Below are positions 14,062 to 59,111 of a stretch of DNA of 61,587 nucleotides, one piece after another (within the stretch, counting starts at the first letter, position 1; every line of letters starts with the position of its first letter). The notes under the pieces were generated by a model. It did no database searches and was not told the DNA's origin. It saw only the letters and a list, made by a program, of their open reading frames with translations. The stretch is from the IMG/VR virus record IMGVR_UViG_3300043395_002060, positions 1 through 61,587 of that record; one strand, written 5' to 3'. This DNA comes from a virus. Taxonomy: Duplodnaviria > Caudoviricetes. Position numbers and translations under genes: made by a program.

Positions 14062-15300
14062 CTATAATAATGATTTATTTGATATTTTAATTCCGTTTCC
14101 AATGATTTCTAAAAAAGAATTTTCATTTTCTATTTTTGATATTAAAGATGTATGGCATTCAATTATCCATTTTTTACATAAATCATAATTGTAATCAAAA
14201 TTTTCTAAAAAATCTTTTACAAATATTGAAAACTTTTTTGCATCTCCTTTGTGATTTACAAATTCATTATAGAACGGATGCGGTGATACGTTTAATATTT
14301 TTTGAATAATATCCAATGGATACGAATGCGTAGATATAAATGGAATTTTCGCCAGTATTAATCCATATGATTTTTCTGAAAGATATTGAGATGTAAAATC
14401 ACCTTTAAACCAAGACCAACTTTCATCTAATATTTGCATTTTTGATAAATTTAAAAATCTAAAAAATACTTCATATTCGACACCCATTTGATAATCCAAT
14501 AATTTTAGATTTTGAAAATCAGATTTACCTTCCAATGTATTTAAATTAATATTTTTAATTTCAGATAATTCTGAATCATATTTATCATAAACTCTATTTT
14601 TAAAAAAACTAGCTCTTTGCAAAAATATATCATCATTATTCAAATATGCCAAATTTTTTAAAATCTCAACCCTATATGGTTTATGCCTTCTAATTGAATA
14701 CATTAATTTATAATCAAAATTTAATTTTTGATAAACCCTACCAAATTCATACCAATATCTAATATTAATTAATTCATTCCACTGCCATAGTGTGTTGGTT
14801 AAAGCAAAGTGGATATTTGGATATGATTTATGTATTTTTTCATTTATAAATAAATTATCCGTTATTATAATATGATTATTTAATTTTGCAATTTGATTTT
14901 CCAAATCAACTATATACGAATCGTTAGTATCTGCTTTATCTAAAATTTTTTCTGTTCTAAACAATGTAATTATCCAACCCGATTTACCTTCTAATAATTT
15001 TATAAATCTTTTTATAAATGGAGTATCTTCGATACCATTACTAACATCTATATCTGAATAGTGTTCGTAAAAATGTCTTTTCCTTAAAGCAGTGAAAAAA
15101 TCCAATAAGTGATAACCATCATCATTATTGTTAAATTCTGGATTAAAAACGAATTCCAAATCAATACTATTATATTTACATTTTACAATACCAATTTTCT
15201 GAAAATTAAAATCGGTTAAATCATATATTCTATCCGTTGTATTATGAGCTAATTTAATAAATAATTCATCCGTAAACCAATGATGTACATAAATTTTCAT
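14062..15300 (-). CDS. GT10-like putative glycosyltransferase
   Basis: ILDES...YLSEKSYGLILAKIPFI motif shared with six other ORFs; ends NKSLL. Confidence 0.55.
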   Translation of the reverse strand: MKIYVHHWFTDELFIKLAHNTTDRIYDLTDFNFQKIGIVKCKYNSIDLEFVFNPEFNNNDDGYHLLDFFTALRKRHFYEHYSDIDVSNGIEDTPFIKRFIKLLEGKSGWIITLFRTEKILDKADTNDSYIVDLENQIAKLNNHIIITDNLFINEKIHKSYPNIHFALTNTLWQWNELINIRYWYEFGRVYQKLNFDYKLMYSIRRHKPYRVEILKNLAYLNNDDIFLQRASFFKNRVYDKYDSELSEIKNINLNTLEGKSDFQNLKLLDYQMGVEYEVFFRFLNLSKMQILDESWSWFKGDFTSQYLSEKSYGLILAKIPFISTHSYPLDIIQKILNVSPHPFYNEFVNHKGDAKKFSIFVKDFLENFDYNYDLCKKWIIECHTSLISKIENENSFLEIIGNGIKISNKSLL

Positions 15301-16001
15301 ATTAATGAGTTTTCAATTGATAATGGATTTGAATTATATTTTTGCTGTCCTACAAAATGAGTATAATGATAATTTGGCTTACCCAATCTGTTTGATAAAT
15401 TTTGTATTTTATAATTTTTAGAAAGTAATGTTAATAAATATTGAGATGTAATAGTACAACACATATAAAAATATTCCATATTATGTTTATTATCATTACA
15501 AAATTGATACATTTTATACCATCTATCCAAATACAAATCTTTTAATTCGGAATTGTTTATTTTAAGTAATCCAATATTGATTACTCTTTGTGATTTATTT
15601 TCCCATTCTGGTATTATATCGCCTATTCCTAAATATGTCAATTCATTTACGCACTTTGAATATAAATCTATCCAACTTTCCCAACCATCAAAATATAAAT
15701 CTACATCAGAATTAAATTCAGGCAATTTTGAGTGAAATATTATATCACCATCTATCAATACGCCATTATTTTTATCCAATAATGGTAATGTTTTAAACCC
15801 ATCCCAAAAAGTAAAAGTAGTATTTATATAATTTGATACATCAACATATTCATCAAATATATTTGTATTTGTATAAATTTCGGTTGCATGTCCATATTTT
15901 TTAGCAGATTTTATACTATTGATGTAATACGATTTTATTACTTCAAATCTATGGGAATCATCTTTGTGTACATTTTTATCAAAAGTATAAATCAAATTCA
16001 T
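15297..16001 (-). CDS. GT-A-like putative glycosyltransferase (DUF6734-like)
   Basis: IDGDI DxD motif, NIGLLK, YTHF; ends ENSLI. Confidence 0.6.
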   Translation of the reverse strand: MNLIYTFDKNVHKDDSHRFEVIKSYYINSIKSAKKYGHATEIYTNTNIFDEYVDVSNYINTTFTFWDGFKTLPLLDKNNGVLIDGDIIFHSKLPEFNSDVDLYFDGWESWIDLYSKCVNELTYLGIGDIIPEWENKSQRVINIGLLKINNSELKDLYLDRWYKMYQFCNDNKHNMEYFYMCCTITSQYLLTLLSKNYKIQNLSNRLGKPNYHYTHFVGQQKYNSNPLSIENSLI

Positions 16002-16732
16002 TATATAATACTTTTATTGAAAATTGAATTAACGTGATTAAAAAACTTTTGTTTAAATTTTGTTTCCGATGCATAATGTGTGTAATCATTAAAATCTTTA
16101 CAAAACTTATAAGTTATTCCCTTTGCTTCCATTACTTTTGGAAAATAATATTCACATACAACAATTGATGGGTCGTTCCAATTCGTTAAATTCTCAAATG
16201 GTTCTATATTTTCTAAATAATATTTACGAAATTTATAATATGAATTTATTAAGATATCTTTTGCTGATTGAGAATTAAATTTTAAAATACCAACATTGGA
16301 TGCATGTAACCCATCATAATCGAAATATTCTATGTTAGATGGAACATCGTATTTTTTAAATATATCCATATATCTTTTGAATTTTTTATTTTTAGTATTC
16401 AAAAGTTTTGTCTCAAATAGAACATCGCAATCGTTTGGTAAATTTAATTTTGACTCCAAAATAACATCACCATCAATCGTAACACAATTTAAATCTTCTT
16501 TTGAGTGTATGAATATTTTCAAATCATCGGTAAGTATGAATTCTTCATTTTCAATACTTACAAATTCATCTATATCATCTTTTAGATTTTCATATATGAA
16601 ATCGCAACCATATAATTTTATAGTATAGCCCAATTGTTTTGCTCTACGCATTGCTGCTTTATAGTATATTACCACCCAATCGTTATCGGTATAATTACCC
16701 ATCTTTGTAGTAAAACTATAAATTAATTTCAT
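16001..16732 (-). CDS. GT-A-like putative glycosyltransferase (DUF6734-like), paralog of 15297..16001
   Basis: IDGDV, NVGILK, YTHY; ends NKSII. Confidence 0.6.
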   Translation of the reverse strand: MKLIYSFTTKMGNYTDNDWVVIYYKAAMRRAKQLGYTIKLYGCDFIYENLKDDIDEFVSIENEEFILTDDLKIFIHSKEDLNCVTIDGDVILESKLNLPNDCDVLFETKLLNTKNKKFKRYMDIFKKYDVPSNIEYFDYDGLHASNVGILKFNSQSAKDILINSYYKFRKYYLENIEPFENLTNWNDPSIVVCEYYFPKVMEAKGITYKFCKDFNDYTHYASETKFKQKFFNHVNSIFNKSII

Positions 16733-17142
16733 TATATTAGATTAACCTTTTCTTTAGCAAATTTATTTACAGTTTCCCAATATGTACTATCTCCATAATA
16801 TGTACAAACTTCTTCGCCAACTTCTATATCTCTTTGTGCTACAAATTCAAACGTTCTATTTTCTTTATTTGTTCTCCAAAAAGCATTATTATTATCTGAA
16901 TGATTATAGATTGCGCCATATCCCAATGGTATTACATATTCTTCAACTTTACCATGCGATGGAAAATTAAATTTATGATTAACTAAAAAAGAATCAAATG
17001 TTCCCAATTTAAATGGAATAGTTAAAAGATGGCATTCTTCTATTATTTCATCTTTTTTTATTGATTCTATTGTAAATACGCCATATCCATGTATTGGAGA
17101 TGTTCTTACTTCTACTTTAGTTGGGGATTTTAATGTAACCAT
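16732..17142 (-). CDS. SET-domain lysine methyltransferase
   Basis: SPIHGYGVF, YNHS..NNA, AQRDIEVGEEVCTYYG. Confidence 0.93.
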   Translation of the reverse strand: MVTLKSPTKVEVRTSPIHGYGVFTIESIKKDEIIEECHLLTIPFKLGTFDSFLVNHKFNFPSHGKVEEYVIPLGYGAIYNHSDNNNAFWRTNKENRTFEFVAQRDIEVGEEVCTYYGDSTYWETVNKFAKEKVNLI

Positions 17143-17528
17143 TATATTATACTTTTATTAACAACTATTTCTTCATCAATATAATCAAAGTTAAATATTT
17201 CATATGACAAAATCAAACTTTCTGGCAAATTAATCAATTTAACTACACTCAAATAATCAACAGTCAATTCAGTATGCTTTGGAATTATTTGATTAGAATA
17301 TAGTTCAATAATATTTTCGTTTTTGATTAATGTTAAATTTGGATTTTCATTATGATTTAAATATCTACCCAATGGATTCGTTTCAATCCACCCATCATAT
17401 ATAGGTCTACTTTCGGATGTAACCAATTCATTTTTTGTAAAATAAAAACCTATTAATTTGTTAGATGGGATGAATTCGGTTGATATAACACCCGTACCTC
17501 TACTTTTAAAGTTATATAAGGAATACAT
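17142..17528 (-). CDS. SET-domain protein (second, divergent)
   Basis: RGTGV, GRYLNHNENPN, ELTVDY. Confidence 0.85.
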   Translation of the reverse strand: MYSLYNFKSRGTGVISTEFIPSNKLIGFYFTKNELVTSESRPIYDGWIETNPLGRYLNHNENPNLTLIKNENIIELYSNQIIPKHTELTVDYLSVVKLINLPESLILSYEIFNFDYIDEEIVVNKSII

Positions 17529-18031
17529 TAAATGATTGATTTAGTCATATTTAAATTTTCTTCTCTTAAAAATAACACCATCGATAATCTTTCGCCTGAT
17601 ATTAATTTTGTAACTTCATGCGGTGTTGTTGGATTTATAATTGATAATGAACCTTGTTCTCTCGACGCAATTTCTTTACCAACTATTAAATCACCGCCTT
17701 CATATTCATTTGAATCACTTAATTGAATTAAATATGTTTTATAGATTATATCAACTCCATACTTTGAAAAATCAGTATGTCGTGCTAAATTATCACCCTT
17801 TTGATAACGCATAAATTTAACCAATGGGATTGATTTAACACCCCATTGGTTTAACTTATTTTCTAAAAATTTGATTAATTCTTCGTTTTTAGTCGAAGTA
17901 TATTTGGCAGATGAATTACTAAATTTTAATTTTACACCACCATAATTCTGAACATCATCCGATGATTCTTCCAAATCGATATTATAAAATCCCTTAATAT
18001 ACTCACACTCATCTTTAGTGAATACAACCAT
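17528..18031 (-). CDS. 2OG-Fe(II) oxygenase (prolyl 4-hydroxylase-like)
   Basis: Y..GD...HTD, QLS...YEGGDL, HEV....GER. Confidence 0.92.
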   Translation of the reverse strand: MVVFTKDECEYIKGFYNIDLEESSDDVQNYGGVKLKFSNSSAKYTSTKNEELIKFLENKLNQWGVKSIPLVKFMRYQKGDNLARHTDFSKYGVDIIYKTYLIQLSDSNEYEGGDLIVGKEIASREQGSLSIINPTTPHEVTKLISGERLSMVLFLREENLNMTKSII

Positions 18032-18046
18032 AACCTATTTGTTTAA

Positions 18047-18184
18047 TTACATATGCTTTGCCTTAAAGTAAGCAATGAAATTAGAAACAATTTCTGAAAT
18101 CTTTTGCTTTTGTGTTGCGGTTGTTGCCGTTACACCCTTATTAGCCAAATCAGCTTTTGTAAAAGTTTTATATACGTTTGCCAT
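18047..18184 (-). CDS. 45-aa Lys/Thr-rich peptide (not in ORF track)
   Basis: MANVYKTFTKADLANKGVTATTATQKQKISEIVSNFIAYFKAKHM; fills the gap between the Hint gene and the oxygenase. Confidence 0.7.
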   Translation of the reverse strand: MANVYKTFTKADLANKGVTATTATQKQKISEIVSNFIAYFKAKHM

Positions 18185-18191
18185 TTTAAAA

Positions 18192-20456
18192 TTATTTATT
18201 ATGAACTAATATTCCGTTTGCGTAAAAATTATGGTTATCTTCAACAGTAAAGATATATGTTTGAGTATCCCCTAAATCCATTTCAACAATATCTTTAATA
18301 GCCGTTTGTGATTTTGATTCATTTACAAATACTAAATCACCTACTTTTATTTGTCTAACATCTTTTCCAATATTATATCTACTATTTGTTAAGAATGGAG
18401 CGTAAGATGCTAATTCACCATTTCCACCTGCTACAAAGAATGGGTGGTCATATGTACATATAATTTCAGTTTGATTAGCAAATACATATTTAACCATATC
18501 ATCATGTATTGGAGTTTTTACACCAACAACTTTTTTAGATTCGTTTTCTATTCCGTTAAATGATAATACTTCATCACCAATAACAACATCTTCAATATTC
18601 TTTTCAGAACCATCTGCCATTGTTACTTTAGTTCCGGCTACAAAACAAGAACCTCCACCATATTTAAAATTATGAACCAATATACCTTCTGCAAAATATG
18701 TGTGATTATCTTTAACATCTAAAATGTGATACACTTCCACTTCACCACTCAAATCTTGTCTATCTACAATTACTGATTCTGATTTATCTTTCTTAATTAC
18801 AATATCGCCTTTTAAGATATCTTGCGCTGCTACCCAACCTTTTCCTTTGATATAGAATTTATGTAAAGGAGTTGATTTAACAACTGAACCATCACCTGTT
18901 TCTAATTGAATTAATAAGAATTCTTTTTTCTTTAAAATATTTCCAATAGAACCTTCTGCTAAAACACCTGTTTTTTCGTTGTAAGTTAATAACTTATCAT
19001 CGGTTGTTAAATCTTCAATGTTCTTTTCAGTACCATCTGCTAAAGTAATTTTAGTTCCAGCTGGGAAACAGTTGTGTGTTACAATTTTAACACTTAATTC
19101 ACCATTATATAAGAAGTAAGTATCACTTGATTCAACGTCAATAATGTGAGTATGATAATCTCCATCTAAAATTTCACCAATTACCGATTGGATTTCGACT
19201 ACACCACCATTCAAATTGATAAGTTTGTGTTTGGTTTCATCTATTTCAGAAATAGTTTCGTATCTTAATACATCTTTTTCAATATCATAAATCAATAAGT
19301 GTGCTCCACCCGATGCTCTAAAATCAGAGCCATCTACCATTGTTATGTGAAATATAGTATTATTTGATAATTCTTGCTGAATATTATTTACAACAACTGA
19401 AGATGTTTCATATGAACCTGATGGTAAATCAGAACCACCAAAAGACCATTGCATGAATTCCGAAACAACATCAGTATCAGGCGCACCTTCTATAAAATAA
19501 GATTTCAAAGATGTACCAACCGATGCACTACATATTAATACAGGCGTACCATCTTCTTTAACGATTGATTCCTCTTCAAAAATACCACCCCAGTTATTAA
19601 CAGTTGCAAATTTAGGATAATTAGTTGTTAATTCATAATAATGTTTAATATTTGATTGATTAACAAATTGCTCATCATTAAATTCGATAGATGTTGGTTT
19701 TTCAAATAATCCTTCATTTATAAAGCTACCAAATGTAATTACATCCAAATTAGAACCATAAATAGCATTTACAGAACGAATACTTTTAACTTTAGTATCG
19801 GCAGGATTTTCATAAAACTTTATCAACAAATTATTTTCGGGAAAAGATGCCTTTAAACCATCATATCTCGATACTTCGGATAAATTTGAATATCCTATTT
19901 TGACAAATTTAATAGAACTATTAACGTTTGCGTTTAAATCTTTAACAGCCACATCCGGCATTGTAGATGAATTAAATTCTAATGGTAATATATCAGTAAC
20001 ACCCGTTACAGATGATGAAACATAGTATTCAACAATTGAACCGCTATCTCCATTTGAATTAAATAAATCTAAAGGAGCTAATTTATTTTTTGCATATTCC
20101 GAATCAAAAATAGCTGATTCATCATAAGCCAATCTTAAAATAAATTTATTATCCGAATCAGCAATAGTATTTGGATATATAGTTGTATCTTCTTCTAAAT
20201 GATTTTGAAAAAGAGTTATAAACGATGCATTATCTGCTATACTTTGAGATAAAGCATTTATAAATCCACTTTGAAATGATTTAGATATAGTATGTACTTC
20301 GGTTATAGAATTTTGATTCAATACATCAATAAACGATGTAAAATCTAAATTAGTTAAACCACCCGGCGCTATAGCTGTATCGGTATTTATTTCCATTAAA
20401 CGAAGATTTCCATTAACATCTTCGATGAAATCCATTGAAAAAAGAGTTCCTTTCAT
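18192..20456 (-). CDS. protein with N-terminal ATP-grasp-like motif and three tandem Hint (intein-like) domains
   Basis: CFPAGTKITLADG...VHN and CFVAGTKVTMADG...VHN, plus an in-register degenerate GIFEEESIVKEDG...THN; N-terminal MDF...LRLMEINT. Confidence 0.85.
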   Translation of the reverse strand: MKGTLFSMDFIEDVNGNLRLMEINTDTAIAPGGLTNLDFTSFIDVLNQNSITEVHTISKSFQSGFINALSQSIADNASFITLFQNHLEEDTTIYPNTIADSDNKFILRLAYDESAIFDSEYAKNKLAPLDLFNSNGDSGSIVEYYVSSSVTGVTDILPLEFNSSTMPDVAVKDLNANVNSSIKFVKIGYSNLSEVSRYDGLKASFPENNLLIKFYENPADTKVKSIRSVNAIYGSNLDVITFGSFINEGLFEKPTSIEFNDEQFVNQSNIKHYYELTTNYPKFATVNNWGGIFEEESIVKEDGTPVLICSASVGTSLKSYFIEGAPDTDVVSEFMQWSFGGSDLPSGSYETSSVVVNNIQQELSNNTIFHITMVDGSDFRASGGAHLLIYDIEKDVLRYETISEIDETKHKLINLNGGVVEIQSVIGEILDGDYHTHIIDVESSDTYFLYNGELSVKIVTHNCFPAGTKITLADGTEKNIEDLTTDDKLLTYNEKTGVLAEGSIGNILKKKEFLLIQLETGDGSVVKSTPLHKFYIKGKGWVAAQDILKGDIVIKKDKSESVIVDRQDLSGEVEVYHILDVKDNHTYFAEGILVHNFKYGGGSCFVAGTKVTMADGSEKNIEDVVIGDEVLSFNGIENESKKVVGVKTPIHDDMVKYVFANQTEIICTYDHPFFVAGGNGELASYAPFLTNSRYNIGKDVRQIKVGDLVFVNESKSQTAIKDIVEMDLGDTQTYIFTVEDNHNFYANGILVHNK

Positions 20457-20482
20457 ATTTTATTGTTTGAATTATTTCTTAT

Positions 20483-20490
20483 ATAAATAT
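20483..20490 (-). promoter_or_regulatory. putative phage late-promoter motif ATATTTAT
   Basis: ATAYTTAT recurs closely upstream of starts at 3078, 12359, 20483, 23662, 49738, 52692. Confidence 0.45.
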
Positions 20491-20516: not shown

Positions 20517-20747
20517 TTATTCTACTTTATCCCACTTCTTTAAATCACACGTTCCTTTTTTTGGTGTAAATATTTTCTTACCTATCGGACACCCACATTC
20601 ATTACATTTATAAGTAAATACAACGGATTCTACCATAGAATCGCAAGTTGTACATATGGATAATCTTTTTTGAGCAAGTTTATTCTGCTCAAGCGTTGGA
20701 TTGCTCGCTATTTTCCAAGCGGCGTATATTTCTTTTATATCTATCAT
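20517..20747 (-). CDS. small Cys-rich metal-binding protein
   Basis: RLSICTTC...CNECGC...K......CDLKKW. Confidence 0.7.
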   Translation of the reverse strand: MIDIKEIYAAWKIASNPTLEQNKLAQKRLSICTTCDSMVESVVFTYKCNECGCPIGKKIFTPKKGTCDLKKWDKVE

Positions 20748-21060
20748 TTTTCTTCTTTTCAATATATTTCATTATACGAATTATATCTTTACACATTTCA
20801 TACTGCTCCCTATCTATTAGGGTATTCTTTATCCATTCTAAAACTTCGACATATTCTTCTTTAGTAAACATAACATATGCCGGAATTCCTTCGAATCTAA
20901 ACATAATTAGTTCGTTGGCGTTTTTATTTCCCTTAAAATTATCGATTAATGTAATAATTGTTGAAAGGTTATCATTTGATAAATGTACACGATTTACATA
21001 ATCAAACCAATTGAGTCTGATATAGCCCTTTTCTAAAGTTTGTAGGAATTTACTGTTCAT
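20689..21060 (-). CDS. hypothetical protein with UVR-like helical motif
   Basis: EQYEMCKDI, similar to EEYEKCSKI in 37865..38164. Confidence 0.6.
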   Translation of the reverse strand: MNSKFLQTLEKGYIRLNWFDYVNRVHLSNDNLSTIITLIDNFKGNKNANELIMFRFEGIPAYVMFTKEEYVEVLEWIKNTLIDREQYEMCKDIIRIMKYIEKKKNDRYKRNIRRLENSEQSNA

Positions 21061-21109: not shown

Positions 21110-21742
21110 TTATCCGATACCCACATATTTTTCCGTTTTTATTTTAGAAATACACCATTGAGCAAAATCACATTGCCCTCTTTCCGACCAATGATAATCC
21201 ATTATTTTATCATTCGTTTCATCGCTTATTCGTTCATATGTTATTTTTGGAATGCCCCAATCATAATCAGACCAAGTTGAATTTATAAAGATATTTGATT
21301 TAAAAGTATGCTTTAATAGATTTATCCAATTTTGAACTTCTTTTTTATAAAGAATATGATTTCTATTAACAAATATCTCATTAATAGTTCTTTCGCTTAT
21401 TTCATTTGGTATCAGATTATCCTTTTGTTTTAATTCGAAACTACCCGGTTGTATCGAAACCCATTTATCCAATCGGTGATTTACTAATCTAAATCTACTT
21501 AATCCACTCCATAAAATAATAACAATATCATTTTCTCCAATGGAATTCACATTTTGACAAACCGATTCAAATATATCAGCATTGGAAAATCCTGCTTTAG
21601 CAAAGTTAAAAGACTTGATTCCTAACTCTTCTGAAATTATTTCTGAATAGGTTTTTGGTATATATCCTTTCCATATGGAATAGGGTGAATTGGTTTTCCA
21701 ATTTTCGCTAAAAGAATCCCCAAATACAAATAATCTTTTCAT
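21110..21742 (-). CDS. SGNH/GDSL-like protein
   Basis: FGDSF, NFAKAGFSN, WS...R, DYHWSERG; related to 5975..6751. Confidence 0.7.
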   Translation of the reverse strand: MKRLFVFGDSFSENWKTNSPYSIWKGYIPKTYSEIISEELGIKSFNFAKAGFSNADIFESVCQNVNSIGENDIVIILWSGLSRFRLVNHRLDKWVSIQPGSFELKQKDNLIPNEISERTINEIFVNRNHILYKKEVQNWINLLKHTFKSNIFINSTWSDYDWGIPKITYERISDETNDKIMDYHWSERGQCDFAQWCISKIKTEKYVGIG

Positions 21743-21906
21743 AGGATTAAATATCATCGAACAACCAAAACATTAATCTAACCCCTAAAATCAGAGCTAT
21801 AATAAATAATCCACATAAGATGATTACCTCTAACATTTGGTGGGGGGTTGGGGGGCCAGTCGTTTTTTAAAGAAATTTTTTTCTTATCTCTATTGATAGA
21901 ACCTAT

Positions 21907-34457: not shown

Positions 34458-35621
34458 CTAAAATTTATTGTAAATTGTTTTTAATGTTTGTTTATAAAAA
34501 TTTTCAATAAATATAGTATTATTATTTTTTGTTTCAATATATTTGTAATATAAATCATGCAACGAATTACCACTTAATAAAGTTTCTATTCGTTTACTTA
34601 TATTATTCATTCTGATTACGTCATCTTCAATTGTATCATATTCATGCAGCCAATCATTCATTTCAAAATCAAATCCAAATTTATCTTTTAATAATTTTAA
34701 TGTATTTGGCTTTGATACCATAATAAATGGATTACCCATTCTAATTGCTTTAAACGTTTTTTCACTAATATTATTCCAATCTTTTCTATTACCATCTTTG
34801 TGATAAAATTGAGTTTCCAATATTATTTCAAAGTAAGTATTTAAATAATGAGATATGTTCACATTTGGAGAATAATTTTTTGTTTTTAGTAATTCATTGG
34901 AATCAAAATCGGGCCAATGTGGAACTCTTTCCAATATTTTGAATTTACGATATTCATCTTGCTTATCTTTAGGAACAAATATATCAAAGCAATCTGGCTC
35001 CCAATTCTCATCAGTAGAACTCCATATAAAATTATTTTCTAATAGATTTTTTTCATAAAAATAGTTTAATAGTTGTATTTTATGAAACCTAATGTGTCCT
35101 GATAAAAATAAACCTTTGAATGGTCTGATATGCCGTTTTTCCCATTTATTTATGGTATTAAAACTATTTAGTACATCATTTGATATCAAATTATGTATGG
35201 CATGCCACATATGTTGCTCGTAATATATTATATCGTTTGATACTGATATTAAATTTTTATCTAAAAAATATAATTCTCTATTACATTCTTTTCTACAAAA
35301 ATCATAAACATCGGTTGATATTTCTTGGTTATCATAAGATGATAAATCTACAAATATATTTTTACAATTTGTATCAAATACGTTCTTCAAAACTACTAAA
35401 GCTGCAGGATTTTCGTAAAAAATGTTAGTTGAAAAACTTACAATTATAGAAGTATGAATATCAGCATCAGTATATTCTACCAATTCTATTGGATAATTTT
35501 CCTGATAAAAACTCGTCAATAATTCACTGCAAATATCAAATGGTTTATTGTTTTGAATAATCCATTCGGATTTTAAATCATTAATTGTTTTAACTATACT
35601 AATAAAGCAAACTTTTTTCAT
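34458..35621 (-). CDS. GT10-like putative glycosyltransferase
   Basis: YFEIILET...ISEKTFKAIRMGNPFI. Confidence 0.6.
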   Translation of the reverse strand: MKKVCFISIVKTINDLKSEWIIQNNKPFDICSELLTSFYQENYPIELVEYTDADIHTSIIVSFSTNIFYENPAALVVLKNVFDTNCKNIFVDLSSYDNQEISTDVYDFCRKECNRELYFLDKNLISVSNDIIYYEQHMWHAIHNLISNDVLNSFNTINKWEKRHIRPFKGLFLSGHIRFHKIQLLNYFYEKNLLENNFIWSSTDENWEPDCFDIFVPKDKQDEYRKFKILERVPHWPDFDSNELLKTKNYSPNVNISHYLNTYFEIILETQFYHKDGNRKDWNNISEKTFKAIRMGNPFIMVSKPNTLKLLKDKFGFDFEMNDWLHEYDTIEDDVIRMNNISKRIETLLSGNSLHDLYYKYIETKNNNTIFIENFYKQTLKTIYNKF

Positions 35622-36805
35622 TAAAATTTATTAAATATTTTTGTTAATGAATTGTTATAAAAATTATTAACAAATATTGGATAATTATCTTTTGATTTAA
35701 AATATTCATAATGTAAATCGTGTAAATCAGAATTACTTAAACTCAATATATCTTTAATTTTTGATTGAATTGCTATCATTCTTTTTGAATCATCTTCAAT
35801 AGAATCATATTCGTGTAACCAACCATTCATTTCAAAATCAAATCCATAATCTTCTTTCAAAATATTCAAAATATTAGCTTTACCTAAAAAAACAAATGGA
35901 TGGTCCATTAACAAAGCTTTCAATGTTTTTTCACTTACACTTGCCCAATTGGTTTGAGTGGCGCGCGTACCTCGTAAAAATTTAGTTCTATGATAAAATT
36001 GAGTTTCCGGAATCACTTCAAAATATGTATTGAAATAATGCATATGATTTACCTGAAATGAATAATTGTAGTATTTAAATTTATCATTTAAATCATAATC
36101 ATGCATATTTGGAACTCTTTGTAATATTTTAAATTTACGATATTCCTCTTCATTATGCGCCGGTATAAATTCATTGAATAAACTTGGCTCCCAATTTTCA
36201 TCAGTAGAACTCCACAAAAAATTCTCATCCAATAAATTATTTTCATACAAATAATTTAATAATTGTATTTTGTGAAATCTAATGTGGCCCGATAAAAATA
36301 AACCTTTGTATTGTTTACCAAATTTACTACACCAATTATTTATCTTTTTATATTCCTTTATATAATGTGGAATATACATATCAACGTGAAACGAACTATT
36401 TTCAAAAAACAAAGTATCATCTTCTAATATGAGATTTTTGCTTATAAAATATAATTCTTTATCACATTCATTTCTACAAAAACTATAAAATTCCGGCTCT
36501 ACATCTTGATGGTCGTAAGTTGCCAATTCAATAAATAATTTTTTATAATTTAAATTAAATATTTTTTTAAGATTATCTAAAAATACAATATCATCCATAT
36601 CAATAACTTCTATTACGCATATTGCCGTTGTATCGATATCGATTGAATCGTAATTTTTAAAGTCCAATGGATAACCTTTGGAATACATAGAAGTAATAAC
36701 TTCAGATATGTGTGGTGGTTGATTTGGTCTTAAATCTTCCCAATACCATACGAATTTATCATTGTCTGTTTTACGTTTTAATTTAAAGAAGCAGACTTTT
36801 TTCAT
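35621..36805 (-). CDS. GT10-like putative glycosyltransferase, tandem paralog of 34458..35621
   Basis: shared KGLFLSGHIRFHKIQLLNY and WSSTDENWEP; VSEKTLKA. Confidence 0.6.
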   Translation of the reverse strand: MKKVCFFKLKRKTDNDKFVWYWEDLRPNQPPHISEVITSMYSKGYPLDFKNYDSIDIDTTAICVIEVIDMDDIVFLDNLKKIFNLNYKKLFIELATYDHQDVEPEFYSFCRNECDKELYFISKNLILEDDTLFFENSSFHVDMYIPHYIKEYKKINNWCSKFGKQYKGLFLSGHIRFHKIQLLNYLYENNLLDENFLWSSTDENWEPSLFNEFIPAHNEEEYRKFKILQRVPNMHDYDLNDKFKYYNYSFQVNHMHYFNTYFEVIPETQFYHRTKFLRGTRATQTNWASVSEKTLKALLMDHPFVFLGKANILNILKEDYGFDFEMNGWLHEYDSIEDDSKRMIAIQSKIKDILSLSNSDLHDLHYEYFKSKDNYPIFVNNFYNNSLTKIFNKF

Positions 36806-37868
36806 ATTTTTGTAACATTTCTTTTTTAAATTCTATAAATCTATTTTTATTAAATAGATGTTTTTCATAAATCATATCAAAATTATCAGCATACTTTTGC
36901 TGAATATCATTTGTATGTAATTGAGTGACTATGCTATCCAATCTTTCCAAATCATTTTTTATACAATCAAATCTATAATCAAATAATTCACCAAATAATT
37001 CAAATCCCCACTCTTTTATTTTATTAAATGAATTTGGTAAATTAAATGAAATGAATGGATAACCCAACGATAATGGTTTGAATGTTTTTTCTGAAAAGTT
37101 CAATAAATTTTCATCATTCTTAACCGGATTTATAGATAAATAATATATGGTTTCACTAATTATTTCGGCAATATGATTTTTATAGAAATCTAAATTAGGT
37201 GTAACACCAACACTATTTAATATATAATCGGATGATGCATTATTGTGATACTCTAAATCATTGTGATTATCTATATCTAAACGTTTAGGAAGTAATGCAT
37301 GAATATCCAAATCTTTATAAATATCTTTGAATTCATATGGTATTTCCAACATAATTAAAGCCTCATCCACTGCTCTTTGTGACCAACTAATATTTTTTAG
37401 TTGATTTAAACCATATAATTTATCTAAAAATAATAATCTATGATATCTAGCATGTCCTCCTAAATAAAAATAACTATTTTGAATAGTATCTTTATTTAAG
37501 ATAAATTCCATTTTAGTAATTCTATATATCAAAGGGTCTATATATAGCCAATTATCTTTTTCAACTGCATTTTTAGATATAACATATATTTCATTTGCTT
37601 TTATTAGTTTAATAAAGTGTTGTATATCTTCGTATCTAAAAATTAAATCATCTGCACTAAAATCTACAAATACTTTATCGTATTCGGATAAATTTAATTC
37701 AAAATCAAATTCATTCATTCCAAATGAACCGGAATAAAATAAATGTAGTACTTTTTTAGATGTATTAAATTTGGAATATAATTCATCTTTAGCATAATTT
37801 AATTCTAAAAAGGATTTATCTACATCAACTATTTTATTAAATTTATTGAATACTTTAAATTCTATCAT
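36783..37868 (-). CDS. GT10-like putative glycosyltransferase
   Basis: EIISET...FSEKTFKPLSLGYPFI; ends KSLLL. Confidence 0.6.
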   Translation of the reverse strand: MIEFKVFNKFNKIVDVDKSFLELNYAKDELYSKFNTSKKVLHLFYSGSFGMNEFDFELNLSEYDKVFVDFSADDLIFRYEDIQHFIKLIKANEIYVISKNAVEKDNWLYIDPLIYRITKMEFILNKDTIQNSYFYLGGHARYHRLLFLDKLYGLNQLKNISWSQRAVDEALIMLEIPYEFKDIYKDLDIHALLPKRLDIDNHNDLEYHNNASSDYILNSVGVTPNLDFYKNHIAEIISETIYYLSINPVKNDENLLNFSEKTFKPLSLGYPFISFNLPNSFNKIKEWGFELFGELFDYRFDCIKNDLERLDSIVTQLHTNDIQQKYADNFDMIYEKHLFNKNRFIEFKKEMLQKYEKSLLL

Positions 37869-53548: not shown

Positions 53549-53553
53549 ATGTG

Positions 53554-53638
53554 CAGAGAGTGAGGGATTCGAACCCCCGTTACCTTTCAGTAAAACAGTT
53601 TTCAAGACTGCCGCCATCAACCTCTCGGCCAACTCTCT
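53554..53638 (-). tRNA. tRNA-Ser(TGA)
   Basis: cloverleaf with long variable arm; GCAGT-CTTGAAA-ACTGT. Confidence 0.92.
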
Positions 53639-54716
53639 ATTTATTAATTAAAAGATTAATTTCATTAACCTTATCAGAGTATATATAATCAAATAATTTA
53701 TTTTTATTATTTTTTGCTTTTTTAACTGCTAAATTATATAAATTATCAAATTCATCATCTGAACAATTTTTCATAAATCTACAAAAATTTTTGTAATTTT
53801 CATAATTTATACCTTCAAATTCTTCATTCAATGTATAATAACCTTTATTTTTCAGTTCTTTTACTAAAAAATCATTTGCATTTACATAGAATGGAGTACT
53901 ATACATCAATCCTTTTGTTGTTTTTTCACTTAAAAAGTACACCATATCATATGTGTAATCTAAAGTCTCTAAAACTAAATTAAATTTACATTTGTTATAA
54001 TCTAATGGATTCGAAAAATGTATAGATGCCGGATTTGCTTCAAAGTGAAAATAATCATTTTCATTGAAAGCTTTTTTGTGAAATCTATCTATATTTTCAA
54101 ATTCTTTTACAGAATTAATTCTACCGATTCTATCTTGAGCTTTAGTATATACAAACACTTTATTCAATCTTTCGGTATTAATATTTAAATAGTAATCATT
54201 TGTAAAATTAAATCCAACTTTAATTGCTCCAAATAATAAACCATAATTGATATCAAAAAAGAATTTATCTAAATTTTTATATTCCCATTGAAACCATTTA
54301 GAGTCATCAATTGTTTTTGATGATGAAAAAAAGTATTTTAAATTTTTATATTCGTAAATACTATATGGATTATTATCCGATATAAATTCGCCTGGGTTAT
54401 ACATTATGGAGTAATCAAAATTTGAAAAATCCATTTTACGTTCTAAATGATTTATTATAAATTCATCAGTTCCACTATCGGTAAATACATAATGCACATA
54501 ATTTTCTTTTGAAAGAGAATTAAGAGTTAAAAATAATTTCTGATTATTGAATATATTTTTTATAAACAATAAATAAAAATCATAATCATTTGCATAATAT
54601 ATTACATATTCATCATTATCATTAATTTTTGTTTTATTTTTACATATATTGTATATAAAAAAAGATGCCGAATCTTTTAATCCACAACAAATAATTTTTT
54701 TATTAATGATATCCAT
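53637..54716 (-). CDS. GT10-like putative glycosyltransferase
   Basis: KFNLVLET...YFLSEKTTKGLMYSTPF. Confidence 0.55.
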   Translation of the reverse strand: MDIINKKIICCGLKDSASFFIYNICKNKTKINDNDEYVIYYANDYDFYLLFIKNIFNNQKLFLTLNSLSKENYVHYVFTDSGTDEFIINHLERKMDFSNFDYSIMYNPGEFISDNNPYSIYEYKNLKYFFSSSKTIDDSKWFQWEYKNLDKFFFDINYGLLFGAIKVGFNFTNDYYLNINTERLNKVFVYTKAQDRIGRINSVKEFENIDRFHKKAFNENDYFHFEANPASIHFSNPLDYNKCKFNLVLETLDYTYDMVYFLSEKTTKGLMYSTPFYVNANDFLVKELKNKGYYTLNEEFEGINYENYKNFCRFMKNCSDDEFDNLYNLAVKKAKNNKNKLFDYIYSDKVNEINLLINK

Positions 54717-54720
54717 TGAT

Positions 54721-54951
54721 TTATAATATTCTTCTACTATTTCTTCTTCTAGCTTCTTCAGCTTCCTTATACCAACGAATCCAAGTTAATGAAATATCGA
54801 TAGGAGCTAATACCCAAGCCATCATCATAACCATAATTGTATCCAATTCAGGTGAGTTGCCAGTTGGTCCTTCATCGTAACGATGTTTATACTTTCGAAA
54901 AAGCTGGAACATACAATAAATGATACAAATTACATAATACGTTATAAACAT
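54721..54951 (-). CDS. small membrane protein
   Basis: two hydrophobic segments. Confidence 0.55.
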   Translation of the reverse strand: MFITYYVICIIYCMFQLFRKYKHRYDEGPTGNSPELDTIMVMMMAWVLAPIDISLTWIRWYKEAEEARRRNSRRIL

Positions 54952-54978
54952 AACTTTTGTTTTTAGTGGTTAATAGAT

Positions 54979-55180
54979 TTGAGTTTGTGAGGTTGAATCC
55001 AATTAAAAAGGTTATTCAGGTTTCAATGAGTTTTGATTATATTGACTTGCCGACAAGAGACCCTAATATTGTTGAAATTTGTTAATTATTCATTATCTTA
55101 TTCGTTCATCCGCTATTTTGGCATCATAGTAGAATTGTAAGAATAAACTAATCAATCAGTTTCAAACCCCACTCACTCAA
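54979..55180 (-). ncRNA. candidate ~200-nt structured RNA
   Basis: ends pair: TTGAGT-GA-GTGGGGTTTGAA with TTCAACCTCAC-AA-ACTCAA; no ORF in track. Confidence 0.4.
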
Positions 55181-55185
55181 TATTT

Positions 55186-55614
55186 TTAAATTTGAGTATT
55201 GGAGTTATGAATATCTAATTCATTCTGCAATGCCTCAACTCTATCTTGTAGTTTTGAAACAATTGCTTCAATTTCTACAATATTTAATTCTACTTCTTTT
55301 ACTGAAACGACACTTCCGTATCTTTCATTAATTTTACCTTCTTCCGTTGGAACTTTTTTCAATTCCTTAATCATCCCTTTCAATTCTGCCAATGCGAAGA
55401 TTTTATCATACACCGGTTGGTTTGCTTTATGGATTTGTGCTTTCAATTCTACCAACTCATTTGATAGAGTATGGATTCTGTCTAAAGTAGCACTCATAGA
55501 ATATCTACGAGGATTACCTTCTTCAATTGAGTTATACTTTTTCAAAATCTCAAATTGAGCTTTCAAATCAGTAACCAATTTGTTCTTTTGTTTTAATGCT
55601 TGTTTTACATTCAT
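55186..55614 (-). CDS. DIP1984-like coiled-coil protein
   Basis: QAL..K, NS..EGN, LKAQIHKAN, LDIHN..T pattern. Confidence 0.6.
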   Translation of the reverse strand: MNVKQALKQKNKLVTDLKAQFEILKKYNSIEEGNPRRYSMSATLDRIHTLSNELVELKAQIHKANQPVYDKIFALAELKGMIKELKKVPTEEGKINERYGSVVSVKEVELNIVEIEAIVSKLQDRVEALQNELDIHNSNTQI

Positions 55615-55640
55615 TGTTTTAAATTTTATTGTTTGTTATA

Positions 55641-55672
55641 CAAATATAGTACAATTATTTCAAATTACCAAA
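55641..55672 (-). promoter_or_regulatory. Bacteroidota-type promoter
   Basis: TTTGG-N19-TATATTTG. Confidence 0.8.
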
Positions 55673-55673
55673 T

Positions 55674-55967
55674 TTATTTTATTTTGTTATCATACAAATT
55701 TTGTAATCGATTTATATGTTGATATATTTCATATCTAACTGCATCTTTTAATTCTTCATTTTGAATCAAAACGCCACCCTTATCTTTCCAACCCCAATAC
55801 CAACCACCTTCAGTATTTTGTGATTTAGCTGATATAGAATAATCAATAGTTATGGTAGGTTCATCGGTATGTAGATACTTTTCATCATTCCAACGAATTG
55901 TAGCCCATATACCAACTGTCCCACCATCTCTATATGTATCTATATTGTGAATTAAAATTACACTCAT
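55674..55967 (-). CDS. hypothetical protein
   Basis: DTYRDGGT motif, 97 aa. Confidence 0.6.
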   Translation of the reverse strand: MSVILIHNIDTYRDGGTVGIWATIRWNDEKYLHTDEPTITIDYSISAKSQNTEGGWYWGWKDKGGVLIQNEELKDAVRYEIYQHINRLQNLYDNKIK

Positions 55968-55976
55968 ATATTTATT

Positions 55977-57134: not shown

Positions 57135-57139
57135 TTCTT

Positions 57140-57559: not shown

Positions 57560-57560
57560 A

Positions 57561-58813: not shown

Positions 58814-58825
58814 TTTATTAAATTG

Positions 58826-58896
58826 TTACCCGAGCTGGATTCGAACCAACCCTAAATGCACCAAAAACATTTGTGCTACCGCTACACCATCGGGCA
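58826..58896 (-). tRNA. tRNA-Gln(TTG)
   Basis: cloverleaf, loop TT-TTG-GT. Confidence 0.9.
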
Positions 58897-58902
58897 ATTT
58901 TG

Positions 58903-59108: not shown

Positions 59109-59111
59109 GAA

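What the first reader, a model, noticed from the sequence alone, without database searches (positions are those of the whole stretch)
14062..20456. Candidate new system: tandem-Hint precursor plus small peptide plus six tailoring enzymes
Seen: one co-oriented run, with the six enzyme genes overlapping at stop/start codons. Order: triple-Hint protein, 45-aa peptide, 2OG-Fe(II) oxygenase, two SET proteins, two DxD GT-A-like proteins, one GT10-like protein. Known: these families methylate Lys, hydroxylate residues and glycosylate hydroxyls, and Hint domains self-cleave or ligate. Inference: a phage-encoded RiPP-like or protein-decoration pathway in which Hint autoprocessing replaces a leader protease and activates the product for ligation, for example onto virion or host proteins. 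The candidate late motif precedes the operon.
Basis: partly seen in the sequence, partly recalled or inferred. Interest (0 to 1): 0.9.

Follow-up and report, generated by a model that had tools for sequence, protein, structure and literature searches.

The report
Self-cleaving phage ligase with partner peptide
An uncultured freshwater phage carries a widespread, undescribed gene pair, a ligase-like protein fused to self-cutting Hint domains plus a tiny partner peptide, flanked by protein-modifying enzymes; it may be a new way for viruses to make or attach modified peptides.

Summary
The gene run is real. Eight co-oriented minus-strand genes lie at 14062-20456, and the six enzyme genes overlap by 1-4 nt.

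The 754-aa protein is more than a Hint precursor:
- Residues 1-285 fold like an ATP-grasp ligase.
- Residues 289-462 are a degenerate Hint. It lacks Cys1 but keeps an invariant C-terminal His-Asn.
- Two intact BIL-type Hints follow, without a +1 nucleophile.

The 45-aa gene is its constant companion. A 35-60-aa ORF follows 121 of 124 distinct homologues. The complex prediction scored 0.84 against 0.00 for the best of 3 controls.

A sister subfamily replaces the Hints with a Cys-rich tail and keeps the peptide.

2OG oxygenases and SET genes cluster beside the pair. The full six-enzyme set occurs in only 3 of 52 loci.

Not verified: the GT-A and GT10 labels and the late promoter.

I found no cultured-phage homologue and no paper.

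Verdict: a real, widespread, undescribed peptide-linked self-processing module. Its chemistry is unknown.

The parts
18192..20456 (-). 754-aa self-processing protein: an ATP-grasp-like domain, a degenerate Hint, two BIL-type Hints and a final Lys
   Evidence: ORF. Pfam finds Hint models. The AF2 model has pLDDT 87.9. 627 homologues at E<=1e-3 among the 8000 candidates scored. 329 clusters at 50% identity match the profile of the N-terminal domain.
19602..20456 (-). Residues 1-285: ATP-grasp-like ligase domain. The protein begins with the strands that carry an E-x-N motif (E22, N24).
   Evidence: In the Foldseek top 50, all six hits that are not Hints are ATP-grasp enzymes: YgiC 7uk8 (E 2.7e-5, 315 columns), YjfC 7uk6, 7uka, and glutathione-synthetase-like 5oev, 5oet and 1m0t. 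Residues 8-34 align weakly to the Ddl segment 265-291 (E about 2). Invariant residues are E22 N24 D26 K59 R108 E113 D118 K123 D168 K172 K186 R227. No Pfam match.
19071..19592 (-). Residues about 289-462: 'Hint0', a degenerate Hint with Gly where Cys1 should be, no conserved block-B His, and an invariant C-terminal H461-N462
   Evidence: Profile against PDB sequences: BIL2 at E 8e-4 and 1e-4. Foldseek: 6y75 at E 3.7e-9. H461 and N462 are invariant in 40 diverse sequences.
18669..19070 (-). Residues 463-596: Hint1, with Cys463, T529..H532 and H595-N596; the +1 residue is Phe
   Evidence: Pfam PT-HINT, E 1.6e-15. Conserved columns. Foldseek: BIL2 6y75 at E 2.6e-12 and the C. thermocellum BIL 2lwy.
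18648..18668 (-). Residues 597-603: linker FKYGGGS between Hint1 and Hint2, not conserved in relatives
   Evidence: the linkers run from 0 to 16 residues and their sequence varies.
18195..18647 (-). Residues 604-754: Hint2 (Cys604, T668..H671, H752-N753) and the terminal Lys754
   Evidence: Pfam Intein_splicing, E 9.8e-17. Conserved columns. 108 of 124 distinct homologues end with Lys at the last or next-to-last residue.
18047..18184 (-). 45-aa partner peptide (near-invariant Y5 and K6; C-terminal helix NFIAYFKAKHM)
   Evidence: It starts 7 nt after the stop of the large gene. A homologous small ORF is present in 33 of 33 representative loci and after 121 of 124 distinct homologues. hhalign links it to the sister subfamily's peptide (probability 95%, E 3.9e-8). 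Complex score 0.84 against 0.00 for the best of 3 controls.
17528..18031 (-). 2OG-Fe(II) oxygenase, 167 aa (H-T-D ... H ... R-x-S, read in the translation)
   Evidence: Pfam 2OG-FeII_Oxy_3, E 7.7e-8, and PHROG 61. It is the only PF13640 match in the window. It is the most regular accessory gene of the pair in both subfamilies.
17142..17528 (-). SET-domain protein, 128 aa (matches the C-terminal half of the model)
   Evidence: Pfam SET, E 5.5e-9.
16732..17142 (-). SET-domain protein, 136 aa (matches the full-length model)
   Evidence: Pfam SET, E 2e-11. These two are the only SET matches in the window.
16001..16732 (-). 243-aa protein of unknown family with an invariant D-G-D; the GT-A label is unverified
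   Evidence: No Pfam or PDB match. It is a paralogue of the next gene. The Atlas neighbours carry DUF6734 in 20-39% of members.
15297..16001 (-). 234-aa paralogue of the previous gene (25% identity)
   Evidence: no Pfam match.
14062..15300 (-). 412-aa protein of unknown family; the GT10 label is only a weak lead
   Evidence: No Pfam or PDB match. The nearest Atlas cluster with a family is GT10 at 0.82. Homologues occur in L002, L003, L004 and L027.

Best explanation
The core is a conserved two-gene module of uncultured aquatic tailed phages. The rest of the cluster is a variable set of accessory enzymes.

Gene 1 encodes an ATP-grasp-like carboxylate ligase fused to 'Hint0'. Hint0 is a Hint domain that has lost the N-terminal nucleophile but keeps the C-terminal His-Asn. 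A replaceable C-terminal module follows Hint0. Here that module is two intact BIL-type Hints and a final Lys. In the sister subfamily it is a Cys-rich tail of 25-35 residues.

Gene 2 encodes a peptide of about 45 residues that wraps around the ATP-grasp and Hint0 domains.

Shown by computation: the architecture, its conservation, the constant pairing, the predicted binding, and the clustering of 2OG and SET genes next to the pair.

Inferred:
1. The protein cuts itself at N462|C463, by Asn cyclisation of Hint0 helped by the N-S acyl shift of Cys463. It also cuts at the Hint1 and Hint2 borders. This frees a 462-residue ligase bound to the peptide.
2. The ligase-peptide complex carries out an ATP-dependent ligation in which the peptide is the substrate, a tag or an essential subunit. 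Its conserved Lys-rich C-terminus K-x-K-H is the likely reactive or catalytic part.
3. The neighbouring 2OG oxygenase and SET methyltransferases, and in other lineages GDSL hydrolases, sulfotransferases and radical-SAM enzymes, modify the same peptide or its product.

Overall this would be a RiPP-like or peptide-tagging pathway with built-in autoprocessing.
For: Architecture:
- Pfam finds two Hints.
- The AF2 models have pLDDT 87.9 and 81.7.
- The best Foldseek hits for the Hints are BIL2 of the Tetrahymena BUBL locus and a bacterial intein-like domain.
- Hint0 is recognised by profile and by fold.
- Every non-Hint hit in the Foldseek top 50 is an ATP-grasp enzyme, 6 of 6.

Catalytic columns:
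- N462 and C463 are invariant across 94 sequences.
- H461, T529, H532, H595, N596, C604, H671 and N753 are at least 90% conserved.
- H461 and N462 stay invariant when the subfamilies are pooled.
- The +1 residues are F and K, so this is not classical splicing.

Pairing:
- 33 of 33 representative loci have a 43-50-aa ORF starting 2-87 nt downstream.
- 77 of 79 loci of the Cys-tail subfamily have one.
- 121 of 124 distinct proteins overall have one.
- The large proteins of the two subfamilies are homologous (hhalign E 1e-52), and so are the peptides (E 3.9e-8).

Binding:
- ipSAE was 0.84 (runs 0.81, 0.85, 0.84) and the best of 3 controls 0.00.
- That mark was reached by 58 of 80 solved complexes and 2 of 110 mismatched pairs. 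The counts hold only roughly, because my own alignments were used.
- The runs agree in at least 96% of contacts, and the partner's pLDDT is at least 88.
- All contacts lie in residues 8-434, none in Hint1 or Hint2.

Accessory enzymes:
- 2OG makes up 37 of 130 downstream ORFs against 11 of 117 upstream. SET makes up 14 of 130 against 2 of 117.
- In the sister subfamily 25 of 64 next-door ORFs are 2OG.
- In the window the only 2OG match and both SET matches lie in the cluster.
- In five records totalling 1.07 Mb, 6 of 8 SET and 7 of 17 2OG matches lie within about 3 kb of the gene.

Precedent:
- BIL2 forms Lys isopeptides without ATP (passages read in PMC8616854).
Against: - No biochemical data exist for any member.
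- The ATP-grasp assignment rests on fold alone. Pfam gives no hit. Profile searches of PDB sequences give only E about 2 for a 27-residue stretch and no ATP-grasp hit with the wider profile. The Foldseek TM-scores are 0.28-0.36 and the rmsd 8-10 A.
- In the predicted complex the peptide touches residues 8, 10, 12, 18, 20, 23 and 226, 228, 230, 232. These alternate with the invariant E22, N24 and R227. By my inference the peptide may therefore sit on the face away from the active site, which favours a subunit over a substrate.
- The accessory set varies. All six enzymes occur in 3 of 52 loci. 10 of 17 2OG matches and 2 of 8 SET matches in large records lie elsewhere.
- The loci are related, so the counts are not independent events.
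- The peptide's K-H ending is found in only 9 of the 26 one-Hint members that have a small ORF.
- A module whose tail can be a single Lys or a few residues is hard to read as 'cargo release'.
Confidence: 0.5

Rival explanations
1. The peptide is only a small structural subunit or chaperone of a self-maturing ATP-grasp enzyme. The enzyme's real substrate is something else, such as a host protein or a small molecule. The 2OG, SET and other genes would then be independent host-takeover or auxiliary genes that happen to collect in the same variable island.
For: - In the predicted complex 41 of the 45 peptide residues are in contact, and they lie on residues that alternate with the invariant catalytic-type residues.
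- The accessory content differs between lineages.
- 2OG genes also occur elsewhere in the large records, 10 of 17.
- The pair sits at a boundary of conserved synteny (Zn-ribbon gene and g123 upstream; g107, HD, Hsp20, UvdE and PDF downstream) where insertions vary.
Against: - SET matches are rare, 8 in 1.07 Mb, yet 6 of them lie within about 3 kb of the pair.
- A 2OG gene is within the first two neighbours in most loci of a sister subfamily only about 24% identical to this one.
- The enzyme genes overlap at stop and start codons, and the 2OG gene follows the peptide gene after a 15-nt gap on the same strand.
Confidence: 0.3
2. The multi-Hint protein is a RiPP-type precursor. Its inter-Hint segment, or the 45-mer, is the core peptide. 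Hint self-cleavage replaces the leader protease and hands the product over for ligation, and all six enzymes act as a fixed tailoring set.
For: - Intact Cys1 and His-Asn residues lie at both borders of the linker.
- The best structural match of the Hints is a BIL that makes Lys isopeptides.
- The enzymes lie beside the pair.
Against: - The linker is 0-16 residues and is conserved neither in length nor in sequence.
- The number of Hints varies from 0 to 3, and 55 of 124 distinct homologues have a Cys-rich tail and no canonical Hint at all.
- The six-enzyme set occurs in 3 of 52 loci.
- The model ignores the conserved ATP-grasp-like domain.
Confidence: 0.07
3. The Hint domains are selfish or decaying inteins that ride on an ordinary enzyme gene and contribute nothing to function.
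For: - Inteins are common in phage genes. The only matches of this protein in GenBank phages are inteins in helicase, terminase and polymerase genes.
- The copy number varies.
Against: - There is no C-extein to splice to and no +1 Cys, Ser or Thr.
- No homing-endonuclease domain was found.
- Hint0 is present in all members examined, with invariant His-Asn.
- The catalytic residues of Hint1 and Hint2 are kept down to 31% identity.
Confidence: 0.05

Closest known systems
BIL2 of the Tetrahymena thermophila BUBL1 polyubiquitin-like locus (PDB 6Y75, 6TMM) and A-type bacterial intein-like (BIL) domains (PDB 2LWY)
   Same: These are the best structural matches of Hint1 and Hint2 (E 2.6e-12) and of Hint0 (E 3.7e-9). 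They share Cys1, block-B His and C-terminal His-Asn, have no canonical +1 nucleophile, and are not inserted into a host enzyme. BIL2 joins the upstream domain to a Lys by an isopeptide bond without ATP (passages read in PMC8616854).
   Different: Here no ubiquitin-like domain lies between the Hints. The upstream partner is an ATP-grasp-like enzyme plus a Cys1-less Hint. The C-extein is a single Lys. A separate 45-aa peptide is obligatory. No activity has been tested.
ATP-grasp peptide ligases of the glutathionylspermidine-synthetase and glutathione-synthetase type (E. coli YgiC and YjfC, PDB 7UK8, 7UK6, 7UKA; yeast GS 1M0T)
   Same: These are the only non-Hint fold matches of residues 1-285 (E 2.7e-5 to 1.8e-4). 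An E-x-N motif sits on a beta-hairpin. By recall, these enzymes activate the C-terminal carboxylate of a short peptide.
   Different: There is no sequence-level match. The protein starts with the E-x-N strands, which usually lie near the C-terminus of the fold. This suggests a circular permutation like that recalled for eukaryotic glutathione synthetase. It could not be checked, because Foldseek gave no aligned ranges. The domain is fused to Hint domains.
Graspetide (microviridin-type) RiPP pathways
   Same: An ATP-grasp enzyme stands next to a short gene-encoded peptide that binds the enzyme, with extra tailoring enzymes nearby.
   Different: The ATP-grasp here is not of the MdnB/MdnC type by any search. 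In the model the whole peptide is bound, leaving no free core. The enzyme carries its own Hint autoprocessing domains. The comparison rests on recalled knowledge of graspetides.
Small-protein tagging or carrier systems that use carboxylate-amine ligases (Pup-PafA; LysW-LysX)
   Same: A short protein is paired with an ATP-dependent carboxylate-amine ligase. LysX is an ATP-grasp and LysW a small zinc-binding protein, which resembles the Cys-rich tail of the sister subfamily. Both points are recalled, not tested.
   Different: There is no sequence or fold match to Pup, PafA, LysW or LysX in any search here. The peptide's C-terminal residue is not fixed (L, S, M or T). No target is known.
Hedgehog C-terminal autoprocessing domain (PDB 1AT0)
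   Same: It has the Hint fold (rank 27) and uses a Cys1 thioester to attach a non-protein nucleophile to the upstream domain.
   Different: There is no sterol-recognition region. Several Hints stand in tandem. The setting is a phage.

Membership tests
Hint superfamily (Hint1 and Hint2) | Hint fold and Pfam Hint/intein models above cut-off | tested here: met
   Intein_splicing 61.6 bits (cut-off 35.8) and PT-HINT 58 bits (cut-off 27.7). Foldseek E 2.6e-12 to BIL2, with TMt 0.84-0.91.
Canonical (class 1) intein | A Cys, Ser or Thr nucleophile at +1 and a C-extein to be ligated | tested here: not met
   The +1 residues are F597 and K754, and the protein ends one residue after Hint2. These are not inteins in the strict sense.
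Canonical (class 1) intein | Cys1, block-B T-x-x-H and terminal His-Asn | tested here: met
   C463, T529..H532 and H595-N596; C604, T668..H671 and H752-N753. All are invariant or at least 90% conserved in 94 sequences.
A-type bacterial intein-like (BIL) domain | A Hint with a C-terminal His-Asn, no obligatory +1 nucleophile, and no insertion into a conserved host enzyme site (definition recalled) | tested here: met
   The best PDB matches are BIL2 (6y75) and the C. thermocellum BIL (2lwy). Cleavage or ligation activity was not tested.
Hint superfamily (Hint0, residues about 289-462) | Hint fold | tested here: met
   Foldseek 6y75 at E 3.7e-9 and 2lwy at E 1.3e-8. Profile against PDB sequences at E 8e-4 and 1e-4. 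Pfam itself does not reach significance.
Hint superfamily (Hint0) | N-terminal nucleophile (Cys1 or Ser1) and block-B His | tested here: not met
   By my reading of the alignment, Gly (G291) stands at the Cys1 column. No conserved His lies between residues 291 and 460. Only D445, H461 and N462 are kept.
ATP-grasp superfamily | ATP-grasp fold | tested here: inconclusive
ATP-grasp superfamily | Sequence membership (Pfam ATP-grasp models or a PDB profile match) | tested here: not met
   No Pfam ATP-grasp hit in 31 members. Only E about 2 to D-Ala-D-Ala ligase over residues 8-34. No ATP-grasp hit with the wider profile.
ATP-grasp superfamily | Mg/ATP-binding E-x-N and conserved Lys and Arg residues | tested here: inconclusive
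   E22, N24, K59, R108, K172, K186 and R227 are invariant within the subfamily. E22, N24 and R227 are invariant across subfamilies. I could not map them onto a solved active site.
RiPP pathway (graspetide type) | A precursor with a leader and a free core that holds the cross-linked residues, plus an MdnB/MdnC-type ligase | tested here: inconclusive
   A peptide gene is always present, but the whole peptide is bound in the model. No similarity to known graspetide ligases appeared in any search. No chemistry was tested.
2OG-Fe(II) oxygenase | Pfam model above cut-off and the H-x-D...H facial triad | tested here: met
   PF13640 at 33.6 bits, cut-off 27, and 34.2 bits. 'RHTDF' and 'TPHEV' can be read in the translation.
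SET-domain methyltransferase | Pfam SET above cut-off | tested here: met
   36.8 and 44.6 bits, cut-off 22.4. The 128-aa protein matches only the C-terminal half of the model. Activity and substrate were not tested.
GT-A glycosyltransferase (genes 16001-16732 and 15297-16001) | GT-A fold or family model, and a DxD motif | tested here: inconclusive
   D87-G-D89 is invariant in 10 homologues. There is no Pfam or PDB-sequence match, even at E 10.
GT10 fucosyltransferase (gene 14062-15300) | Pfam Glyco_transf_10 or a structural match | tested here: not met
   No Pfam hit at E up to 10. No PDB hit of relevance. The only support is an Atlas feature score of 0.82, below the 0.9 line.
T4-type late promoter | TATAAATA upstream in the coding orientation | tested here: not met
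   The window holds 8 copies against 20.5 expected from shuffles. The copy at 20482-20489 is on the wrong strand. Only ATAAATA lies 64 nt upstream.

The most novel reading that the evidence does not exclude
This is a phage-encoded peptide-conjugation system that needs no E1, E2 or E3 enzymes. The ATP-grasp domain activates a carboxylate. The Hint chemistry provides the transfer step, through the thioesters at Cys463 and Cys604 and the succinimide at Asn462. The 45-aa peptide, marked by SET methylation and 2OG hydroxylation, is covalently joined through a Lys to the enzyme's own C-terminal module or to host or virion proteins. It would be a viral analogue of BUBL-type ubiquitination or pupylation. 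The Cys-rich tails of the sister subfamily would serve as alternative thiol carriers or released mini-proteins.
Probability: 0.15. Interest if true: 0.95.

Novelty: new variant of a known kind. Interest (0 to 1): 0.8.

Why it matters
If the reading holds, a large family is a new kind of self-processing enzyme with an obligatory micro-protein partner. It comprises 329 clusters at 50% identity. The three IMG/VR scans confirmed 53, 299 and 110 stretches. The family has no cultured representative.

It would widen what Hint domains are known to do outside inteins, Hedgehog and polymorphic toxins.

It would give SET-domain and 2OG enzymes of phages a concrete candidate substrate.

It would add a compact, genetically encoded cleavage-and-ligation device that could be of use in protein engineering.

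It also makes an open question testable: what the many 2OG oxygenase genes of aquatic phages act on.

Tried and rejected
Dead ends and rejected ideas:
1. DNA similarity of 14062-20456 to GenBank phages gave no match. The protein search found only inteins in unrelated genes. The Cys-tail relative P0238 found nothing.
2. Sequence-level proof of the ATP-grasp failed. I keep the assignment as fold-based only.
3. The GT-A and GT10 labels gained no support from Pfam at E up to 10, PDB profiles or the Atlas. I neither accept nor exclude them.
4. The late promoter was not supported.
5. The inter-Hint linker as a core peptide is rejected, because its length and sequence vary.
6. The BFVD fold search returned mostly Hint-containing viral proteins. 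The best were three unnamed entries (A0A1C3NFC6, 506 aa, 391 columns, E 6.6e-14, and two others). It gave no functional name.
7. Expression: no RNA holder is listed. Two runs labelled RNA-Seq are 'probably DNA'. The contigs laid say nothing on transcription.
8. The R2K ATP-grasp paper (PMC4431377, passages found by term search) and the jumbo-phage paper (PMC7824862, passages) mention phage ATP-grasp peptide ligases but no Hint fusion.
9. Literature searches for ATP-grasp with Hint, for Hint with cyanophage or phage, and for BIL with phage found no description of this architecture. Only listings and abstracts were seen, apart from the passages named above. Subscription journals and supplementary files are not covered.
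10. No p-values are given for the 2OG and SET enrichment, because the loci are related.

Full report
SETTING. The window is a 61.6-kb IMG/VR virus record estimated at 32% complete. All long ORFs run on the minus strand, GC is about 30%, and there are 13 tRNA genes. It also holds a baseplate-J-like gene, a carbamoyltransferase, a peptide deformylase, UvdE, Hsp20 and a CobS-like AAA ATPase. The nearest cultured phages by the baseplate protein are Microcystis phage Mel-JY01 (41% identity) and Flavobacterium phage immuto (37.5%). Nearly identical DNA is held by freshwater, reservoir and estuary metagenomes from about eight studies besides the possible source. This is therefore an uncultured aquatic myovirus-like phage.

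THE OBSERVATION. One search confirms eight co-oriented genes at the stated coordinates. The six enzyme genes overlap by 1, 1, 1, 1 and 4 nt. Pfam confirms one 2OG-Fe(II) oxygenase, two SET proteins and Hint models on two stretches of the 754-aa protein. The two putative GT-A genes and the putative GT10 gene have no Pfam or PDB-sequence match. The first two are 25% identical paralogues with an invariant D-G-D. The third has only a sub-threshold Atlas lead to GT10 (0.82). The canonical T4 late motif is not upstream in the right orientation.

ANATOMY OF THE LARGE PROTEIN. An alignment of 94 family members and an AF2 model (pLDDT 87.9) show four parts.
- Residues 463-596 and 604-753 are intact Hints. 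They keep Cys1, T-x-x-H and terminal His-Asn. Their best structural matches are BIL2 of the Tetrahymena BUBL locus, a bacterial intein-like domain and mini-inteins.
- The residues after each His-Asn are Phe and Lys, and the protein ends at Lys754. Classical splicing is therefore impossible.
- Residues about 289-462 are a third Hint, recognised by profile (BIL2, E 8e-4; E 1e-4) and by fold (E 3.7e-9). It has Gly where Cys1 should be and no conserved block-B His. It ends in an invariant His-Asn that abuts Cys463.
- Residues 1-285 are a separate alpha/beta domain. In the Foldseek top 50 every hit that is not a Hint is an ATP-grasp enzyme: YgiC, YjfC and glutathione-synthetase-like proteins, at E 2.7e-5 to 1.8e-4.

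The protein begins with a hairpin that carries E22-x-N24. This aligns weakly with the Mg-binding segment of D-Ala-D-Ala ligase (E about 2). Twelve charged residues are invariant in the subfamily. Sequence methods do not detect the ATP-grasp, so this assignment rests on fold and is provisional.

THE PEPTIDE IS THE CONSTANT PARTNER.
- In 33 of 33 representative loci a 43-50-aa ORF starts 2-87 nt after the large gene.
- Tyr5 and Lys6 are near-invariant, and the C-terminus reads F-x-x-x-F-K-x-K-H.
- A complex prediction with my alignments gave ipSAE 0.84 (0.81, 0.85, 0.84) against 0.00 for the best of three controls. The partner's pLDDT was at least 88 and the runs agreed in at least 96% of contacts.
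- That mark was reached by 58 of 80 solved complexes and 2 of 110 mismatched pairs, counts that hold only roughly here.
- All contacts lie on the ATP-grasp-like domain and Hint0. Peptide residues 4-8 pair with strand 427-431, and helix 32-40 packs on L131 and F132. No contact falls on Hint1 or Hint2.
- This is a model's confidence, not a measurement.

THE FAMILY IS WIDER THAN THE WINDOW'S TYPE. A profile of residues 1-285 finds 329 clusters at 50% identity. In 146 of the 150 listed, the match begins at residue 1 or 2 of the protein. I retrieved 22 short members of 460-510 aa. All consist of the ATP-grasp-like domain plus Hint0 and end in His-Asn. In 10 a short tail follows the His-Asn; in 12 a Cys-rich tail follows it.

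The Cys-tail type is homologous to residues 1-462 from end to end (hhalign E 1e-52). It gave 299 confirmed stretches in IMG/VR. A 35-60-aa ORF follows it in 77 of 79 loci, and that peptide family is homologous to the window's 45-mer (probability 95%, E 3.9e-8).

Over all fetched loci there are 124 distinct complete proteins:
- 55 have Cys-rich tails, 28 about one Hint, 33 about two, 3 about three, and 2 short tails. Three more lack the His of Hint0's ending; by length two of them carry about three Hints and one about two.
- 121 have the small ORF.
- 108 end with Lys at the last or next-to-last residue.

The conserved unit is therefore [ATP-grasp-like domain + C-terminally reactive Hint0 + exchangeable C-terminal module] plus [partner peptide].

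THE ENZYMES. tblastn of the window's genes against 52 loci shows the complete six-enzyme set only in L002, L003 and L004, the closest relatives. The set is therefore not a fixed pathway. The neighbourhood is still not random:
- Among the four ORFs of 100 aa or more after the peptide, 37 of 130 are 2OG oxygenases and 14 of 130 are SET proteins. On the upstream side the figures are 11 of 117 and 2 of 117.
- In the Cys-tail subfamily 25 of 64 next-door ORFs are 2OG oxygenases and 11 are GDSL hydrolases. Sulfotransferases and radical-SAM enzymes also occur.
- The window's only 2OG match and both its SET matches lie in the cluster.
- In five large records totalling 1.07 Mb, 6 of 8 SET and 7 of 17 2OG matches lie within about 3 kb of the gene.
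- The loci are related, so these are not independent events. The pattern nevertheless recurs in subfamilies only about 24% identical.

MECHANISM, WITH ITS STATUS. The architecture, the pairing, the predicted binding and the enzyme clustering are shown by computation. Three steps are inferred.
1. Self-cleavage occurs at N462|C463. Hint0's Asn cyclisation is the one Hint reaction it can still perform, and Cys463 can add an N-S acyl shift at the same bond. Cleavage also occurs at the borders of Hint1 and Hint2.
2. The complex of residues 1-462 with the peptide performs an ATP-dependent ligation.
3. The SET and 2OG enzymes act on the peptide or on its product.

BIL2, the closest solved relative, attaches the upstream domain to lysines without ATP (PMC8616854, passages read). 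Lys-directed ligation is therefore a live option, and the conserved lysines of the peptide and of the protein's C-terminus are candidates for it.

Against the substrate reading, the peptide's contacts alternate with the invariant residues of the E-x-N hairpin and with R227. The peptide may therefore lie on the opposite face and be a subunit (my inference).

NOVELTY.
- GenBank phage records hold neither the N-terminal domain nor the Cys-tail relative.
- The N-terminal 462 residues have no significant Pfam family.
- Six literature searches and passages of two comparative-genomics papers gave no description of an ATP-grasp-Hint fusion or of this peptide.
- The searches do not cover subscription journals or supplements, and one relevant review (PMC3268129) was not held.
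- I file this as a new variant of known kinds (BIL-type autoprocessing, and ATP-grasp systems with a peptide). There is an open chance that it is a new kind of conjugation system.

LIMITS.
- No model coordinates could be inspected.
- No clear RNA data exist.

Noticed in passing
Loci L054-L133 (for example L054:6001-7503) and proteins P0229, P0238, P0243, P0244, P0247-P0251, P0260-P0264: A sister subfamily of about 495 aa ends, right after Hint0's His-Asn, in a tail of 25-35 residues with 5-7 cysteines (patterns such as C-x-C...C...C-x2-C). The tail usually ends in Lys or Lys plus one residue. It could be a zinc-binding tail or a released Cys-rich mini-protein.
   Followed up: partly
window 18195-18197, and the C-termini of homologues in L002-L211: 108 of 124 distinct homologues end with Lys at the last or next-to-last residue, whatever the C-terminal module is. 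No explanation so far accounts for this.
   Followed up: partly
window 20517-20762 and 20689-21060 (minus strand): An 81-aa Cys-rich protein (C-x2-C ... C-x2-C-x-C; weak DUF6171 match, E 0.007) and a 123-aa protein lie just upstream. Both are conserved upstream of the pair in several relatives (L002, L003, L010-L014, L031-L034; the 81-aa gene alone in L043), sometimes with 1-2 kb inserted in between.
   Followed up: partly
window 21110-21757 (minus strand): A 215-aa protein starts with a GDS(F) motif (weak GDSL match, E 0.021). Relatives of it lie downstream of the pair in other loci. GDSL hydrolases are the second most common neighbour in the sister subfamily (11 of 64).
   Followed up: partly
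window 34458-37868: A low-GC stretch (0.24-0.25) holds three ORFs of 361-394 aa with no Pfam match. It has the same low GC as the enzyme cluster at 14-18 kb, so it may be another variable island.
   Followed up: no
window 53553-61532: 13 tRNA genes lie on the minus strand, most of them in two tight arrays.
   Followed up: no
L016-L023, L040, L047 (proteins of about 912 aa) against L035, L037, L041, L042, L044, L045 (about 607-648 aa): The number of canonical Hints varies from one to three. The one-Hint forms have a linker of 12-16 residues after Hint0, and their peptides mostly lack the K-H ending.
   Followed up: partly
L011-L015, L028, L029, L031-L034, L036, L043: In these relatives the last domain is a different Hint type. 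It ends in ...SEHNFIV..SGLGDN... followed by about 15 more residues, not in His-Asn-Lys.
   Followed up: no
BFVD entries A0A1C3NFC6, A0A1C3NF88, A0A1C3NFC5: Three unnamed viral proteins with neighbouring accession numbers are the best (ranks 1, 2) or a high (rank 6) structural matches of residues 1-462. A0A1C3NFC6 has 506 aa and 391 aligned columns (E 6.6e-14). It may be a deposited member of the family.
   Followed up: no
window 17141: One reservoir-metagenome contig carries a 2-base insertion at the SET128/SET136 junction. This would alter the stop/start overlap in that population.
   Followed up: no
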